Assembly (NCBI GenBank): GCA_951406725.2
Contig: OX597819.1
Span: 132,122,001-132,186,000, forward strand
Source of the DNA: Octopus vulgaris
Taxonomy: Eukaryota
Direction: 5' to 3'
Length of the DNA stretch: 64,000 bases
Below the pieces are notes generated by a model. The model did not search any database. It was not told the DNA's origin and saw only the letters and a program-made list of their open reading frames with translations. Made by a program: the position numbers and the translations under genes. How positions within the stretch are numbered: the first letter of the stretch is position 1; each line of letters starts with the position of its first letter. Below, in pieces: positions 23,646-59,782 of this stretch.

Positions 23646-24781
23646 TACACTGCAATATTTTGTTCAAAATATGGATTTGAAAAAACCCCACAAAGGAACC
23701 TAGATTTCTGTCAGTTTTTTTACTAGTCTCAGCTTTCGCTCTGGGGCCATTAGAATACATTTGTGGGTCTTTACTAATTAAAAACGAGGGAATGCAGTAT
23801 TTCATCATTGTCCGAAAGGTCAGAGGTTAGCAAATGGAATTAGCTCGTTCAACCACCAGAAGCTAAGGGTATTTCATTTGAATCCAGCTGTTGTCTGTTT
23901 TTCTTTTCCATTCTGAATTTGGGAAAAGTGCCAAAATCTGTTCAAAAAACGAAACCTATTTTTTTCAACATTTGGAGCTTAAACTAAAATCCAAAACAAT
24001 TAAATTCTCTGCTGAGAATAATTTGATGCGATATTCTAATTCCATCAACAGATTCAGTTTTTCATTTGTTCCCCCTTTATATTTATGATAATTATTATTA
24101 ATTTTTTTTTTTTTTTGGTCAAATAAGGTTCTTAGTTTTATAACGAACATGAAAACAATGTTGTTGTTTTTCTGTAAGTATTAGGGTTAATAATTCCCAT
24201 GTTGTATATATTTCGATTGAACTTGATCTTCTAAGAACACTTGTCGACTGTTGCTGTATTAACATCTCAATTCCACAATCCAGTTATAAATGGCATTTTC
24301 AGTAATCATGAAACAATGTTTTTCCAGTTTTGAGAGCTTTTTCCAGATATTTTTAGTATGAAATTTTGTTTCTTTATTAGAAATGCTTGTCTCAGTTTTC
24401 TTTTCTGTTTGTTTCGTATTTGTGCTTCATATCTGCTTTTGTTTGAATTCAGTTTTTGTAGTAAAATTAGTTGATATCACATTGTTCCTTATGGTATATA
24501 TTTCATTTACTGCTACCTAACATAGTAGTAATTGGACACCTGAATTTGATTCAGTGAATGTTTGCTGTCACATGCTTTGTGTTTGCAGTAGATTCTTAGA
24601 TTTTGATCATCTGTTGAGTAGATTTAGCAGGATTTGTTTAAATGGTAGAGTTCTTTTGGAATGGTTCTGCTTAATTTGTTAGTTGCTTGCGATAAGTAGT
24701 TGTCGTAATCAGTTATGTAGAGGTAGGAAATGTTTCGTGTCCTATTCTCTAATTACTTTGTTTTCAACTGTTTTTATTTAG

Positions 24782-25102
24782 GAAACTCCACTGAAGATCC
24801 TAATGTTATAATTGAAACTGTTGAAGACAATGCTGACAATGAGAACAAAGGAACGCAGTCTCTTAAACCAACTCTTACAACCAAAAACCCGGTTATGTAT
24901 CTAAATGAATTGTTGCCCGAACCTTTGGTTTATGAACTGATGTCAGAATCTGGTCCTCCTCATGATAGGAATTTTGTCATGTCGGTAAAGGCTAATGACC
25001 AAACGGTGCAGGGGGCTGGTCGCAGCAAGAAACTTGCCAAGGCAGCGGCTGCCCAGGTAGCTTTGTTTAAGCTTTTCAACATCGTCTACATCTCAGAACC
25101 AG
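24782..25102 (+). CDS. ADAR2: ADAR2 optional (cassette) exon encoding an extra N-terminal dsRNA-binding domain
   Basis: Translation has a full dsRBM (KNPVMYLNEL...YELMSESGPPHDRNFVMSV...GAGRSKKLAKAAAAQVALFKLF). Acceptor tttttatttag|GAAACT at 24781/24782 and donor CCAG|gtcagt at 25102/25103. 321 nt = 107 codons, phase 1 at both ends, in frame with the 58582 exon. Matches the known extra-dsRBD exon of squid ADAR2a. Confidence 0.9.
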
Positions 25103-27279
25103 GTCAGTTGATCTAATTTCCCATCTACAGCCATACAATTCTTCACGAAAATTTAGATTTAGTTCATCAGAATCAAGCTACATCTAAAAGAATTTTTGTA
25201 ATAATCACCGATGTTGTCATTAGTCAACAATTATAAGGTCCAATGCTAACTGTTTGCTCCTCTGATCGGATCTTGTTTTTCTAGTTTCTTTTTATCGTTT
25301 TTGATGTTGTTTGTGTTTAATATCTTTTGTAGAACCAAATTTATTTGGTTGAATTGTGTTTCCTTTGTGTCATTGAAATAACATTTTAGGGTAAAAATTA
25401 GAAACTGGCATGTGACATTCAATAGCTCTGGTTAATCTTTCTTTTTTTTTTTTTGTGTGATATTTTCTGTTGATCGTTATTTTAAAATCAGGTTCTTCTT
25501 TTGGTATGCCTTTTGTTTTCCAAGTGTTGATATTTTTGTTGAATTGACTAAAATGTGTGTTGTGCTGTTGTCTTTCATAATCTATTGCTTAATTCTAAAA
25601 CTAAGTTTTGCTCATCTTGGTGTTGCTTACATAAACGCGTTGTTATAGAATTATAAAAAAAGAAATAGGCAGATTGGGTGGAGGATTTTCGGAATTCCTG
25701 TTTGTGAAGGAGCTTAAGCTGACCTGTTTGACACAATTTTGGTCTTAGCCCCTGTCCAAATACAAGAAATGTTTCATATTACATCAAATACTCTACAATC
25801 TGTGATGAACCATTCCATCTGAAGTTGTAGAAAACAATAGGAGAAATTTTAAACTGGAAAGACCCAACGGGGCCACTGAAAGGCCCGTTGCTTTTTTCCA
25901 TCTTTCACCTGGCTATTTATAATGTGTCTCATTAAAATATTTAATTAACATTGTTTATTTTCAGCTGATACTTGCATGTTTGTAATTAATATATTAAAAC
26001 TGCATTTTATTTAGATTTATTATTATTATTATTATTCTATAGTCTTCTCCATATTTTGTTGTTTGTTTTCCTGATTTGATTATAAGTTAATGTATTGTTA
26101 TTTCAAATATTTGCAGATATTAATCTTTCCAAAAAAGGCAAAAAATTCTAGAAGCAACAAAAGATTTTGAAATGTATTTTTGTTGGTAAAAACAAATATT
26201 GTATAACCTCTAAACATTTGAAATTAGTTTCTATTTAAAATTTCACCGAGGATCTTATAACTAATAACTTCATTCTTTATTTAGGAGCATAGAAACACTT
26301 TGTGGGTTTTCTTTTATTCTTTCTAAATCCTAAAATCACAAAAATCTTAACATTTTCCTTTGTTTGAAGGTGGCTTTCCCGTAAGAGATTCGTTTTTACA
26401 GCCTTAAAGTGTAGGGGAGATAACTGCCTACTCTGTATTCGAAATAAACTTTGTCTAGAGAAATAATTTTTTAACAGGATTTTTTATTTTCCGTACCAGG
26501 ATCTCTACCTGAAAATTTATAGCATTTGGAACAACAACAACAACAATAATAAATTTGTTTCTTTTAAGCAACAGCTATGATAAGAAAAAGAATGTTTAAA
26601 AAAATGAGTTTTTAGGTAAGCTGAAAATTAAACAACTTAATTTCTTCGTTCAAGACATTCCAACATTCTCAATAATCCAGTCTTTTTGTAAAGGAAATTA
26701 TTTTAGGCAGATACTGTGTAGTTTAAGGAAAACGGATTAACTGATCAATCAAATGTTGGATTTTAAAAAACTTTTTGAGTCCTTTTTTTCCCTGTTACTC
26801 TAACTTGCATTGCATGAAACTGTCAAGCATAACATTTTTGCTTTTCCGACTGCAAATTTTTTATTCTGCAACCCTGGCTGCTTTTAACTTTAATCAATGT
26901 TGTTTTGCTTTTATGTGGAGAAAATTTAGAATTTTTTTCTTTTTTCTCATTACCTTATTGTTTCACATTCCATCAAGTTAATTTCAGAATTGTAAGGCAC
27001 CAAACTTATTTACATGTAGTTTTCCCCACAAATCATTTATGTCTATGTGCTGCTTTTTTTCATTGTTACATTTTTTTTTAGTTAAGATTGTTAACAAATA
27101 TATAAAAAACAAGTTACACCGTTGCTACAGGCAACCTCCCCTGAGCAACAGTGTCTTCATGTCTTTTTTTGTGCAAGTATATTCTCTGTCACACAAAACG
27201 ACTGACCTAGTTTTAAATTTCTTAACTCCTTTCACCTCTTTCTTTCTATTTGCTAAATCACAACAGCCATATGCATCGT

Positions 27280-45058: not shown

Positions 45059-46091
45059 ACGATGGGCTTCTTTTCCCGCCCGTCAAATCTACTCCCAAGG
45101 CCTTGGTTTACGGGAGGCTATAGCAGAAGACACTTGGCCAAGGTGCCTTGCAGTGGGACTGAACCTGAAACAATGTGGTCGGGAAGCCAACTTCTTACCC
45201 CACAGCCACGCCCACGCATTCTTCACCGTGACTGGTGCAACCTTACACACCCACCAAGAACCTGTCGAAGCCATATGCACGGCTCCTTATGAATGAATAA
45301 CGTATAAAAGTGGCAGGGGCGTCTCAGACGCACCCCAGTTTCATCAGCTCGTATTCGGGGGGGGGGGGGACAGAAAGGGGCAGATGCAACTTCGCATCTA
45401 GGACCCGGCTTCTGTGTTGTATTTGGCACCCAAAAAACGGGGAATAAAAAATATAATGGAATTCGGTGGAAATGTGAGAGAATGATTAGACATTTAAAAA
45501 GTGTAACGAAACACTTTGGCACTTCATAATAGACCGAAGAACTATTACAAAATACACAAGTAATCATAACTTTAAACTGTTTAAACTGATTCTTCTACGA
45601 TGTTTCATTGTTGGATAACTGTCCGCAGAAGTAGTACTCAATACCAACGCTTTGCAGTTGTACTTTTAAGCAGGCACCGGCTTACTCTCTTTACCTCTCT
45701 CTCATATATATACACACACACACTGAAAGAAGGCCGTCGTGTATGTGTGTGTGTATCTATATACACACACACACACATATATACACGACGGCCTTCTTTC
45801 ACTTTTCGTCTATCGTTTACTCACAAGGCTTTGGACGGCCCGAAAGTTACAGCAGAAGAAACTTGTTACCTCACAGCCACGCCTGCGCCATCCCCCACTC
45901 TCTCGGTCTGTCTGTCTCTCTCTCTACACACACACACTCTCGCGCGCGCGGGGAGAGAGTGAGCTCTAATGTGCGGCACGAACGTTTGATCCCTATAAAC
46001 ATTTCATTTGCAATGGTCGTTCGGCAAAAGTTGAACGCTAATATTTCGTCTTTGACGGGAGAGTTCATTGTGTGTGTGTGTGTGTGTGTAA

Positions 46092-46093
<2 letters not shown>

Positions 46094-46134
<41 letters not shown>

Positions 46135-46491
46135 ATATATATGTATGTATATATATGTGTATGTATATATATATCTATGTATGTATATATATATGTATGT
46201 ATGTATATATATATCTATGTATGTATATATATATGTATGTATGTATATATATATGTATGTATATATATATGTATGTATGTATATATATATATGTATGTAT
46301 GTATATATATATATATGTATATATATGTATATATATATGTATGTATGTATGTATGTGTGTATATATGTATGTATATATGTATGTATATATATATGTATGT
46401 ATATATGTATGTATGTATATATGTATGTATATATATATGTATGTATGTATATATATATGTATGTATGTATATATATATGTATATATATATG

Positions 46492-46525
<34 letters not shown>

Positions 46526-46929
46526 TATGTATGTATATATATATATGTATATATATATGTATGTATATATGTATGTATATATATATGTATGTATATATAT
46601 ATGTATATATATATGTATGTATATATATATGTATGTATATATATATGTATGTATATATATATGTATGTATATATATATGTATGTATGTATATATGTATGT
46701 ATGTATATATGTATGTATGTATATATATATGTATGTATATATATATGTATGTATATATATATGTATATATATATGTATGTATATATATATGTATGTATAT
46801 ATATATGTATGTATATATATATGTATGTATATATATATGTATATATATATGTATATATATATGTATGTATATATATATGTATGTATGTATATATGTATGT
46901 ATGTATATATGTATGTATATATATATGTA

Positions 46930-46962
<33 letters not shown>

Positions 46963-47127
46963 ATATGTATGTATGTATATATGTATGTATGTATATATGT
47001 ATGTATGTATATATGTATGTATGTATATGTATGTATGTATGTATATATGTATGTATATATATATGTATGTATATATATATATATGTATATATGTATATGT
47101 ATGTATGTATATATATATGTATATATG

Positions 47128-47158
<31 letters not shown>

Positions 47159-47370
47159 GTATGTATATGTATATGTATGTATATGTATATGTATGTATAT
47201 GTATATGTATGTATATATATATGTATGTATATATATATATATATGTATGTATGTATATATGTATGTATATATATATGTATGTATATATATATGTATGTAT
47301 ATATATATGTATGTATATATATATGTATGTATATATATATATGTATGTATATATATATATGTATGTATGT

Positions 47371-47425
<55 letters not shown>

Positions 47426-47799
47426 TATGTATGTATATATATATATGTATGTATGTATATATATGTATGTATGTATATATGTATGTATGTATATATATAT
47501 ATGTATGTATGTATATATATATATGTATGTATGTATATATATGTATGTATGTATATATATGTATGTATGTATATATATGTATGTATGTATGTATATATAT
47601 ATGTATGTATATATGTATGTATGTATGTATATATATATGTATGTATGTATGTATATATATATGTATGTATATATGTATGTATGTATGTATATATATATGT
47701 ATGTATATATATATGTATGTATATATATATGTATGTATATATATATGTATGTATATATATATGTATGTATATATATATGTATGTATGTATATATATATG

Positions 47800-47833
<34 letters not shown>

Positions 47834-47911
47834 TATATATATATATGTATGTATGTATGTATATATATATATATGTATGTATATATGTATGTATATATAT
47901 ATGTATGTATG

Positions 47912-47973
<62 letters not shown>

Positions 47974-48620
47974 TGTATGTATGTATGTATATATGTGTAT
48001 GTATGTATATATATATATGTATATATATATATGTATGTATATATATATGTATGTATATATATATGTATGTATATATATATGTATGTATATATATATGTAT
48101 GTATATATATATGTATGTATATATATATGTATGTATATATATATGTATGTATATATATATGTATGTATATATATATGTATGTATATATATATGTATGTAT
48201 ATATATATATGTATATATATGTATATATGTATGTATATATATATGTATGTATGTATATATATGTATGTATGTATATATGTATGTATGTATATATATATGT
48301 ATATATATATATATGTATGTATATATATATGTATGTATATATATATATGTATGTATATATATATATGTATGTATATATATATGTATGTATATATATATAT
48401 GTATGTATATATGTATGTATGTATATATATATGTATGTATGTATATATATATGTATGTATGTATATATGTATGTATGTATATATATATGTATGTATTTAT
48501 ATATGTATTTATGTATGTATATATGTATATGTATGTATGTATATATATATGTATGTATGTATATATGTATGTATGTATGTATATATATATGTATGTATGT
48601 ATATATATATGTATGTATGT

Positions 48621-48654
<34 letters not shown>

Positions 48655-48801
48655 GTATATATATGTATGTATGTAAATATATATGTATGTATGTATGTAT
48701 ATATATATGTATGTATATATATATATGTATGTATATATATATATGTATGTATGTATGTATATATATGTATGTATGTATGTATATATATGTATGTATGTAT
48801 G

Positions 48802-48837
<36 letters not shown>

Positions 48838-49057
48838 TATATATGTATGTATGTATATATATATGTATGTATGTATATATGTATGCATGTATGCATGAAT
48901 GTATGTATGTATATATATATATGTATGTATGTATATATGTATGTATGTATGTATATATGTATGTATGTATATATGTATGTATGTATGTATATATATATGT
49001 ATGTATGTATGTATGTATATGTATATATGTATGTATGTATGTATATATGTATGTATG

Positions 49058-49091
<34 letters not shown>

Positions 49092-49179
49092 TGTATGTAT
49101 GTATGTATATATGTATGTATGTATATATATATGTATGTATGTATATATATATGTATATATGTATGTATGTATGTATATA
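46094..49179. repeat. About 3.1-kb compound (TA)n/(TATG)n microsatellite
   Basis: Direct reading: near-strict alternation of T with A or G, with only a handful of interruptions. Confidence 0.98.
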
Positions 49180-49211
49180 CTTTATTTAAAGCAGCAGAAA
49201 ATTCAACAAAA

Positions 49212-49252
49212 CCTGTTACTCTGAGTTTCCCGTTGCCGTTCATCGGACAGTT
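49212..49252 (-). ncRNA. Hammerhead ribozyme-like motif (variant core) in a Penelope-like remnant
   Basis: Minus strand: CUGU CCGAUGA A CG GCAA CG G GAAA CUC A GAG UA ACAG. Stems I and III pair, with a GUA cleavage triplet and U4 to C in the core. Confidence 0.55.
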
Positions 49253-49349
49253 TTTGCTAGCAAAAACTGCTTTAAATAAAGCATATTACTCTACCACTGG
49301 TATTTGAGTACTCTTTTTCCACCTTGTTTCACATTTATGTGTTTACTCC

Positions 49350-53362: not shown

Positions 53363-53474
53363 ATGATGTTGGCTTACTCGCGAGTTCCTTTCACACATGC
53401 TTACCATAATGCCTACAGAGAACGTCGCAGAATGAAACACAGGAATGGTTGGAGCCATCACATATTACAATATT
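53363..53474 (+). CDS. Candidate alternative first coding exon of ADAR2 (MMLAYSRVPFTHAYHNAYRERRRMKHRNG...)
   Basis: ATG at 53363 in complex, non-repeat sequence. Two possible donors (AATG|gttgga after 53447 and TATT|gttagt after 53474) are both phase 1, in frame with the 58582 exon. No transcript evidence. Confidence 0.4.
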
Positions 53475-58581: not shown

Positions 58582-59343
58582 ACGGTGAACAAGATGTGAA
58601 ATCTGAAGAGGGTGAGAATAAAGACGGCAAAGGAGAAATGTCAGCCCAGAAGCGCTCGTTTCCTTGGAATGGTGAAAATGGTCGTCCATCAAACAAAAAA
58701 AAGAAAGCTCATGGTCCTACCCTTCCCAAGAATGCATTAATGCAACTCAATGAAATTAAACCGGGTTTGGAATTTCAATTAATGGGTCAAACTGGACCCG
58801 TTCATGCTCCGACATTTAACATGAAAGTGGAGGTGAATGGCGAAATCTTTGAAGGAGCCGGTCCAACCAAAAAGAAAGCCAAACTTCAGGCTGCTGAGAA
58901 AGCTCTGAGATCTTTTGTTCAGTTCCGTAATGCATCCGAAGCTTACCAGGCGATGGGCAAAAAAGTGAATTCGTTAGATTTTACATCAGATACGGCAGAT
59001 ATCGGTACTTTTATCAATGATTTTGAAGACAAAATTGAAGGGGAGAATAACGAAGTAGCACAAGGGGTTTCCAAAGCCAATGGCTCGCATACAAACCAGA
59101 AAGCTACATTAACACCCCAGCCTGCAGGTAAAAACCCTGTGATGATTTTGAACGAGTTAAGGCCAGGCTCAAAGTATGAATTTGTTTCTGAATCAGGTGA
59201 GAGCCATACGAAAACATTTGTGATGCAGATTACAGTGGATGGCATTGATTTTGAAGGTACTGGCCGCAATAAGAAGCAAGCAAAAGCAAGGGCTGCCCAG
59301 GCTGCCCTTGCACAGGTTTTCAATATGCAACTTTTCCCACCTG
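58582..59343 (+). CDS. ADAR2: ADAR2 (double-stranded RNA-specific editase 1) exon encoding NLS, dsRBD1 and dsRBD2
   Basis: [19 protein letters not shown]...[10 protein letters not shown]...[35 protein letters not shown]...DFTSD...[14 protein letters not shown]...SESGESH...[16 protein letters not shown] closely follows vertebrate ADARB1. Acceptor ttttcttttcatttag|AC and donor CCTG|gtaagt. 762 nt, phase 1-1. Confidence 0.96.
58647..58708 (+). other. Bipartite nuclear localisation signal ([20 protein letters not shown])
   Basis: KR-x13-KKKK directly before dsRBD1, at the same position as the basic NLS of vertebrate ADAR2. Confidence 0.7.
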
Positions 59344-59782
59344 GTAAGTACCTTGATGAGTCATCTCTTTTCATTCTTGTTTATGACTGACAACTCGACT
59401 TAATGATCTTCTCGATTTCCCTTTAATATCTTTTCAACTACATTTGTTGATGATCATAAGAACTTCTAATGTAAAGACTTGATATTTCAAATGTTAGTTT
59501 ATGTTGTAGCTATTAACCCTTTCACCGGTATCTACATGTGTGTGTGTATGTGTGTACGCACAAACTCACTCACCACACACACACACACACACACACAGGT
59601 GTGTCCATATACACACACATACACACCTACACTATATATGCACATATATAATCATATATATATATATATATTGATGTGTATATATATATATATATATACT
59701 TAAATGTATAAATATGTTGGTATGTGTATATATTTGTTAATACATCTATAATATTAGTGTTTGTATATATGTATTTTTTTTT

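What the first reader, a model, noticed from the sequence alone, without database searches (positions are those of the whole stretch)
24800..25108. The extra dsRBD exon looks like a partial duplicate of the 3' end of the main exon (linker, dsRBD2 and splice donor)
Seen, by manual alignment over about 66 aa: about 35 identities to dsRBD2 versus about 28 to dsRBD1. It shares the dsRBD2-specific words KNPVM, YE..SESG, FVM, GR.KK.AKA.AAQ.AL...FN. Both exons end seven to eight residues after FN with P-G|gt in phase 1 (IVYISEPG versus MQLFPPG). The upstream linker also aligns (VEDNADNENK versus [10 protein letters not shown]). Inference: an intragenic duplication carried dsRBD2 with its 5' splice site into an upstream intron and recruited a new acceptor. 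This gives a concrete origin for the cephalopod innovation.
Basis: partly seen in the sequence, partly recalled or inferred. Interest (0 to 1): 0.75.

Follow-up and report, generated by a model that had tools for sequence, protein, structure and literature searches.

The report
Mollusc-wide extra ADAR2 RNA-binding exon
This optional exon gives the octopus RNA-editing enzyme ADAR2 a third RNA-gripping domain already known from squid; it is likely an old copy of the enzyme's second domain, and because clams, oysters, scallops and snails carry a matching extra domain it is probably not a cephalopod invention.

Summary
The exon is real: 24782-25102, 321 nt, phase 1-1, joined to the main ADAR2 exon (58582-59343) in contigs of 4 of 4 runs laid; a skipped form also exists. 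It is the octopus counterpart of the squid ADAR2a extra dsRBD. It is closer to dsRBD2 (35/66) than to dsRBD1 (29/66). That grouping was published in 2023; my 110-domain tree agrees (99/90), but AU tests on smaller sets cannot reject the alternatives. The donor argument gains support: the exon ends 7 codons + 1 base after helix 2, the same place as the dsRBD2 donor in five non-cephalopod molluscs (cephalopod dsRBD2 has 6). The linker alignment fails in squid (p 0.97). 'Cephalopod innovation' is not supported: ADAR2 records of 20 of 27 named bivalve and gastropod species carry an extra N-terminal dsRBD2-like domain (two in some scallops), ending at the same exon position. One origin before these classes split is likely (about 70%), not shown. 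What looks cephalopod-specific is upkeep: the RNA-contact histidine is present in 3 of 3 cephalopod but 1 of 20 other mollusc extra domains.

The parts
24770..24781 (+). Acceptor (pyrimidine tract + AG) of the extra exon, phase 1
   Evidence: Sequence; contigs continue upstream into two different first exons
24782..25102 (+). Optional ADAR2 exon, 321 nt = 107 codons, phase 1-1; acidic lead-in plus one dsRBD
   Evidence: named Octopus isoforms with and without it differ by exactly these 107 residues
24883..25080 (+). Extra dsRBD core (KNP to FN) with helix-1 Glu, loop GPPH and KKLAK
   Evidence: Pfam dsrm 47.3 bits, cut-off 23; alpha-beta-beta-beta-alpha in the model, pLDDT 81-91 by block; motifs counted
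25103..25108 (+). Donor GTCAGT, 7 codons + 1 base after FN
53363..53474 (+). Coding part of an internal first exon (5' end not mapped); transcripts starting here cannot include the extra exon
   Evidence: Matches the N-terminus of P0012; joined to 58582 in 3 of 4 runs; donor read
58582..59343 (+). Main ADAR2 exon, 762 nt, phase 1-1, with dsRBD1 (58728-58919) and dsRBD2 (59130-59324)
59130..59324 (+). dsRBD2, the inferred parent of the extra domain
59344..59349 (+). Donor GTAAGT, 6 codons + 1 base after FN (7 + 1 in non-cephalopod molluscs)

Best explanation
The exon is a skippable in-frame cassette that adds a third double-stranded-RNA-binding domain to octopus ADAR2, and it likely arose once, before cephalopods, snails and bivalves split, as a copy of the dsRBD2 end of the main exon together with its splice donor. 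Shown here: exon bounds, phase 1-1, included and skipped forms, dsRBD fold and motifs, closer likeness to dsRBD2, extra domains in bivalve and gastropod ADAR2 records. Inferred: that the donor came with the copy; that all mollusc extra domains share one origin; exon ends in other species (from isoform pairs and read-through ORFs, not from their DNA). Not resolved: whether the acceptor is new or left over from a whole-exon copy. Function: inclusion would raise RNA-binding avidity and editing, as reported for squid ADAR2a (cited; not tested here). Cephalopods kept the full RNA-contact set and conserve the domain as strictly as the two standard ones; in other molluscs it drifts and mostly lacks the loop histidine, so it is predicted to bind RNA less well there.
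For: Parent: local profiles score the octopus domain 79 bits on dsRBD2 and 49 on dsRBD1; every mollusc extra domain printed but one (Babylonia, 30 vs 33) prefers dsRBD2, while the three shark ADAR1 domains prefer dsRBD1. Best single-domain PDB matches are ADAR2 dsRBM2 (64.5 bits) over dsRBM1 (46.2). In the 110-row mixture-model tree all 23 extra and 41 dsRBD2 rows are split from dsRBD1 and ADAR1 at 99/90, in 992 of 1000 bootstrap trees. Donor: the main exon ends 7 codons + G after helix 2 in chiton, Pomacea, a venerid clam, oyster and Pecten (5 of 5 non-cephalopods checked), 6 in cephalopods; the extra exon ends at 7 codons + a split codon in Octopus, Doryteuthis, Haliotis, Gigantopelta, Littorina and Pomacea and at 5 in Patella (6 of 7 genera). 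Age: 10 bivalve and 10 gastropod named species have the extra domain, also full-length unnamed contigs of about 3 kb (P0022, P0026, P0040, P0061), which must be spliced. Cephalopod extra + cephalopod dsRBD2 group in 0 of 1000 bootstrap trees; three class-by-class origins are rejected (AU p 0.016 and 0.008). At sites where cephalopod dsRBD2 changed, the extra domain keeps the older state at 3 and shares the new one at 1 of 7. Its flanks match the other extra domains (shuffle p 0.0008 and 0.0002); the 5' flank scores +1.8/+4.0 on them and -5.4/-8.4 on dsRBD2. Upkeep: octopus-squid identity 67/73 (extra), 71/72, 64/72; Haliotis-Gigantopelta 29/72, 58/72, 62/72; His in 3 of 3 vs 1 of 20.
Against: Trees of 65-79 columns are weak. 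With 46 rows no AU test rejects cephalopod extra + dsRBD1 (p 0.57, 0.36, 0.74), all extra + dsRBD1 (0.22, 0.23, 0.75) or cephalopod extra + cephalopod dsRBD2 (0.38, 0.34, 0.79). The quick tree that showed all extra domains as one clade (86) was beaten by about 10 log-likelihood units by each of three rival trees, so it is no support. On the core alone all extra domains group in only 25 of 1000 bootstrap trees, while the non-cephalopod ones group without the cephalopod ones in 997; that bootstrap had not settled. Diagnostic sites give 4:1 or 6:2 for dsRBD2, not significant. The GPPH loop resembles dsRBD1 and ADAR1 more than dsRBD2 (GESH). Extra dsRBDs arise repeatedly (two beetle ADARs; some sponge/ctenophore ADAR2s). 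A shared exon end would also follow from two separate copies that each took the donor. No non-cephalopod genomic DNA was read.
Confidence: 0.6

Rival explanations
1. Two separate copies of dsRBD2: one on the cephalopod stem, another in the ancestor of bivalves and gastropods; the architecture converged.
For: Non-cephalopod extra domains form their own group (99/94; 997 of 1000) that excludes the cephalopod ones; cephalopod extra + cephalopod dsRBD2 is not rejected by AU; beetles gained an extra dsRBD separately; cephalopod domains share only 4 of 10 residues typical of other extra domains.
Against: 0 of 1000 bootstrap trees join cephalopod extra with cephalopod dsRBD2; older dsRBD2 states and the 7-codon tail are kept; flanks match other extra domains; one gain is simpler than two at the same place. 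A long shared stem for bivalves and gastropods also explains their group.
Confidence: 0.22
2. Same parent and age, other mechanics: the whole 1-1 main exon was copied in tandem and later lost its dsRBD1 part, so both splice sites are original and no acceptor was recruited. Overlaps with the best explanation.
For: The main exon is symmetric 1-1, so a whole copy is in frame at once; the lead-in matches the main exon's acidic start about as poorly as it matches the linker (p 0.11 vs 0.03 in octopus, 0.93 vs 0.97 in squid).
Against: No dsRBD1 remnant in any extra region; needs a second event.
Confidence: 0.25
3. The domain came from dsRBD1, from ADAR1 or from a non-ADAR dsRBD protein, and its likeness to dsRBD2 is old shared character or convergence.
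For: GPPH loop; AU tests do not reject it; ILF3 dsRBD2 scores 54.7-59.1 bits, near ADAR2 dsRBM2; DNA shows no preference.
Against: 99/90 split; 30-bit profile preference for dsRBD2 that ADAR1 domains lack; exon end equals the dsRBD2 donor while no intron follows dsRBD1 here; the only matches at E<=0.001 in this genome are the two ADAR2 domains, of 10 candidates scored. That ILF3 is confined to vertebrates is recalled, not tested; Staufen and ILF3 were not in my trees.
Confidence: 0.08

Closest known systems
Squid ADAR2a optional exon 2 (Doryteuthis; ACO52474.1 = P0004 vs ACO52475.1 = P0005)
   Same: Same place, phase 1-1 cassette, domain 67/73 identical, same 7-codon tail. PMC10278661 describes the exon and groups the domain with dsRBM2.
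   Different: Octopus exon is 107 codons against 99, with a different lead-in. [quoted passage not shown]
ADAR2 dsRBM2 (PDB 2b7v, 2l3j, 6vff)
   Same: Best structural relatives by sequence; same fold and helix-1 Glu, loop His, KKxxK.
   Different: GPPH instead of GESH loop, one extra residue after helix 1, own flanks that form short strands in the model (residues 44-46, 114-116), N-terminal position.
Bivalve and gastropod three- and four-dsRBD ADAR2 records (e.g. P0017 Haliotis, P0019 Crassostrea, P0015 Argopecten)
   Same: Extra N-terminal dsRBD2-like domain, matching flanks and exon end, isoforms without it.
   Different: Fast divergence, loop His in 1 of 20, KKxxK in 13 of 20; two extra copies in Argopecten and Mizuhopecten.
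Tandem exon/domain duplication of symmetric phase-1 exons (general mechanism; established knowledge, recalled)
   Same: In-frame 1-1 cassette that repeats a domain of the same gene.
   Different: The copy lies upstream of dsRBD1, so the order is 2'-1-2, not adjacent; only part of the parent exon is recognisable.

Membership tests
dsRBD (Pfam PF00035) | Profile match over the curated cut-off | tested here: met
   47.3 bits vs 23
dsRBD (Pfam PF00035) | alpha-beta-beta-beta-alpha fold | tested here: met
   Model from 45-row alignment: H50-57, E64-70, E77-84, E87-93, H96-112, block pLDDT 81-91; single-sequence model failed
dsRBD (Pfam PF00035) | RNA contacts: helix-1 Glu, loop His, KKxxK | tested here: met
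   All three in 3 of 3 cephalopod extra domains (features from PMC11334849)
dsRBD (Pfam PF00035) | Binds dsRNA | not testable with these tools
   Reported for the squid domain in papers cited; originals not held
sqADAR2a-type optional exon of ADAR2 | Lies in an ADAR2 gene upstream of the dsRBD1-dsRBD2 exon | tested here: met
sqADAR2a-type optional exon of ADAR2 | Both included and skipped, in frame | tested here: met
   Included in 4 of 4 runs; exon-1-to-main join in 2 of 4; internal first exon join in 3 of 4 (runs are RNA by guess)
ADAR2 dsRBD2-derived duplicate | Groups with dsRBD2, not dsRBD1/ADAR1 | tested here: inconclusive
   99/90 in the 110-row tree but not significant in AU tests on 46 rows
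ADAR2 dsRBD2-derived duplicate | Shares the dsRBD2 donor position | tested here: met
   7 codons + 1 base, equal to 5 of 5 non-cephalopod main exons (inferred from proteins)
ADAR2 dsRBD2-derived duplicate | Carries the dsRBD1-dsRBD2 linker | tested here: not met
   Marginal in octopus, absent in squid
Cephalopod-specific innovation | Absent from other molluscs | tested here: not met
   Present in records of 20 of 27 named bivalve and gastropod species
Single conchiferan origin of the extra domain | All mollusc extra domains form one clade | tested here: inconclusive
   Not rejected (AU 0.26-0.53), 25 of 1000 bootstrap trees on the core; flanks favour it
Single conchiferan origin of the extra domain | Absent in chitons and non-molluscs; present in Nautilus and scaphopods | tested here: inconclusive
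   No extra domain in 3 of 3 Liolophura isoforms or in Tubulanus, but gene models often miss this exon; no Nautilus or scaphopod record came up

The most novel reading that the evidence does not exclude
The third ADAR2 domain, often cited as a cephalopod trait behind their heavy RNA recoding, is a Cambrian-age mollusc exon made from dsRBD2 and its donor. Bivalves and snails kept it but let its RNA-contact surface decay (scallops even doubled it), while coleoids alone held it under full constraint as an RNA clamp. The cephalopod novelty would then be a few residues and splicing control, testable by domain swaps between oyster, abalone and squid ADAR2.
Probability: 0.5. Interest if true: 0.6.

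Novelty: new member of a known kind. Interest (0 to 1): 0.45.

Why it matters
Why coleoid cephalopods recode so many mRNAs is open, and the extra ADAR2 domain is one of the few candidate enzyme features on the list. If oysters, mussels, abalones and limpets have it too, its presence cannot be the explanation; published tables that list oyster ADAR2 with two dsRBDs rest on truncated models. The contrast in the loop histidine and in conservation gives a direct experiment, and a panel of natural third domains for editing-enzyme work. The duplication mechanism itself is ordinary.

Tried and rejected
Linker co-duplication: rejected as unsupported. DNA-level dating or breakpoint search: saturated. 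Shared phase 1 as evidence: discounted, it is forced by the host intron. Quick tree with all extra domains as one clade: set aside after constrained searches beat it. A mixture-model AU run on my own tree set timed out. Single-sequence fold: pLDDT 46, unusable. Metagenome scan for genomic DNA of a bivalve extra exon: 1 locus of 590 candidate stretches, an unrelated dsRBD protein (L015). First protein search with the exon alone found only 3 proteins among 128 candidates. The run finder listed no holder on record as RNA; the four runs laid are RNA by guess, though their contigs join exons 33 kb apart. Contig depths (extra/main: 58.9/596.8, 5.7/131.6, 26.3/366.6, 6.3/51.9) hint at a minor form but are a poor measure. 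The 50%-cluster search gave 15 of 150 listed proteins with three or more dsRBDs; I named 3 of them by look-up attempt (two beetles, one unnamed), so the non-mollusc range is thinly checked. P0013 (flycatcher, exact dsRBD1 repeat) was left out as a likely assembly error; P0014 was left out of the trees because its spacer looks copied from the squid protein by a guided gene model. Palavicini 2009 and 2012 are not held. Earlier scan notes: none.

Full report
What is there. The window holds part of an ADAR2 gene; both exons translate letter for letter to proteins named Octopus vulgaris and O. sinensis ADAR2. The extra exon runs 24782-25102 (321 nt) and the main exon 58582-59343 (762 nt); both are phase 1-1. 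Contigs of 4 of 4 runs laid cover exactly the extra exon, continue into the main exon behind it and into two different first exons before it. On the main exon, contigs also show a direct join from exon 1 (2 of 4 runs) and from an internal first exon near 53363-53474 (3 of 4). Exon 1 lies about 13.4 kb upstream of the window and the next constant exon about 34 kb downstream of it. The runs are RNA by guess only. The domain passes Pfam dsrm and folds as a dsRBD in a model built on 45 sequences.

What was known. The squid proteins ADAR2a and ADAR2b differ by the 99-residue counterpart of this exon. PMC10278661 (passages, sections 17 and 22 read; figures not seen) says the optional first dsRBM is exon 2, that it groups with dsRBM2 of human and fly ADAR2, and that such features appear unique to cephalopods; the word 'duplicat' does not occur in it. 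Higher affinity and activity of ADAR2a are taken from citing passages (PMC4384741; PMC5705066); the two Palavicini papers were not held, so I saw only their titles and cannot exclude that they discuss the origin.

Identities are 35/66 to dsRBD2 and 29/66 to dsRBD1. The shared words separate dsRBD2 from dsRBD1 but are not unique to it. The linker match is marginal in octopus and absent in squid. DNA is saturated. The shared phase is forced. The donor position, however, is informative. In cephalopods the main exon ends 6 codons + G after FN, one less than the extra exon. ORFs that read through into the intron, or isoform pairs, put the main-exon end at 7 codons + G in chiton, Pomacea, a venerid clam, oyster and Pecten, and the alignment shows a one-residue gap in the squid row at this spot. 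So the extra exon keeps the older dsRBD2 donor position exactly. This is inferred from proteins, not from those genomes.

The unexpected result. A search with the three-domain protein returned bivalve and gastropod ADAR2s with full coverage. Domain scans show an extra N-terminal dsRBD in 10 bivalve species (Ylistrum, Argopecten, Mizuhopecten, Crassostrea, Saccostrea, two Mytilus, Dreissena, Potamilus, Ruditapes) and 10 gastropod species (Gigantopelta, five Haliotis, Patella vulgata, Littorina, Babylonia, Pomacea); 7 further named species showed only two-domain models (Sinanodonta, M. galloprovincialis, Pecten, Mercenaria, Lottia, P. caerulea, Nucella), several starting at a methionine just before dsRBD1. 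Argopecten and Mizuhopecten have two extra domains. Isoform pairs place the end of the extra exon 7 codons after helix 2 in 6 of 7 genera, with junction residues that fit phase 1 in Haliotis, Gigantopelta and Littorina. The chiton Liolophura (3 of 3 isoforms) and the nemertean Tubulanus show two domains only; absence from gene models is weak evidence, since the O. bimaculoides model also lacks the exon. In print: Table S2 of PMC9989829 (rows seen) lists two dsRBDs for the ADAR2 rows that follow the oyster and octopus entries; PMC6651903 (passages) defines lophotrochozoan ADAR2 as having two, and its domain figure S1 was not among the text I could see. Eight full-text searches gave no paper whose listing or passages report a third ADAR2 dsRBD in bivalves or gastropods; I also read passages of PMC4323055, PMC9068888, PMC11334849 and one bioRxiv preprint.

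Which parent, how many origins. Profiles built from 13 mollusc proteins score the octopus extra domain 79 bits on dsRBD2 and 49 on dsRBD1; ADAR1 domains lean the other way. A 110-row tree (72 columns, mixture model, bootstrap not fully settled) separates all extra and dsRBD2 rows from dsRBD1 and ADAR1 at 99/90, 992 of 1000; cephalopod extra never joins cephalopod dsRBD2; non-cephalopod extra domains group in 997 and all extra domains together in 25 (two long dsRBD2 rows ignored). On 46 rows, AU tests reject only three class-by-class origins (p 0.016, 0.008) and leave dsRBD1, ADAR1, a cephalopod-only copy and a single origin all open. A quick tree with a single clade of extra domains proved not to be the best tree. 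Character evidence tips it: flanks shared with the other extra domains and not with dsRBD2's 5' flank, older dsRBD2 states kept, same place in the protein. I put origin from dsRBD2 at about 0.9, donor carried along at about 0.8, one origin at about 0.7. Staufen and ILF3 were not in the trees.

How it likely works. Inclusion adds a third dsRBD in frame; skipping or the internal start gives the standard enzyme. The three RNA-contact features named in PMC11334849 are complete in 3 of 3 cephalopod extra domains; among 20 other mollusc extra domains the Glu is in 20, KKxxK in 13, the loop His in 1, against 27 of 38 for non-cephalopod dsRBD2 and 37 of 38 for dsRBD1. The cephalopod domain is as conserved as its neighbours, the others much less. 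The inference is that cephalopods use it as a full RNA-binding module and that elsewhere it binds more weakly or does another job; no binding was tested. Freshwater species (Dreissena, Potamilus, Pomacea; habitat recalled) keep it, so salt tolerance alone would not explain its retention.

Verdict. A real, known exon; an ordinary duplication origin that is likely right and half published; a wrong 'cephalopod innovation' label whose correction is the part a specialist would care about. Interest 0.45.

Noticed in passing
window 59343 joined to L012:1501 (G000:C6:132191672, 5.7 kb past the window end): In 3 of 4 runs the main exon is also joined to an alternative exon that gives nine codons and a stop, predicting an ADAR2 form with dsRBDs but no deaminase. 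Contig depths are 164.5 vs 361, 37.6 vs 90.9 and 125.4 vs 220.7 against the normal join (rough). It could act as an inhibitor or be a way to turn the enzyme down. A Sepia model (P0138) also ends just after this donor, with a different tail.
   Followed up: partly
window 53363-53474: Internal first exon inside the intron between the extra and main exons, joined to the main exon in 3 of 4 runs; a second way to leave the extra domain out.
   Followed up: partly
P0015, P0403 (Argopecten), P0018 (Mizuhopecten): Scallop ADAR2 with four dsRBDs: the extra domain is itself doubled.
   Followed up: partly
P0236 (Henosepilachna), P0242 (Ceutorhynchus): Two beetle ADARs carry an extra N-terminal dsRBD that falls outside the mollusc/dsRBD2 group, a likely separate gain.
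   Followed up: partly
P0179 (Pecten X1), P0018 (Mizuhopecten X2): A lysine-rich insert is spliced in at the donor after dsRBD2 in scallop models, the same junction as the octopus stop exon.
   Followed up: no
P0014 (Ylistrum), P0013 (Ficedula): Likely annotation artefacts: a scallop spacer that mirrors the squid protein, and an exact tandem repeat of dsRBD1 in a bird model.
   Followed up: no
window 46000-49300: About 3 kb of TA/TG-rich simple repeat with almost no C on the + strand (GC 15%, skew near 1) inside the ADAR2 intron.
   Followed up: no
L015:2929-4230: Unrelated 433-residue frame with dsRBD-like stretches at its N-terminus in a metagenome contig; not examined further.
   Followed up: no
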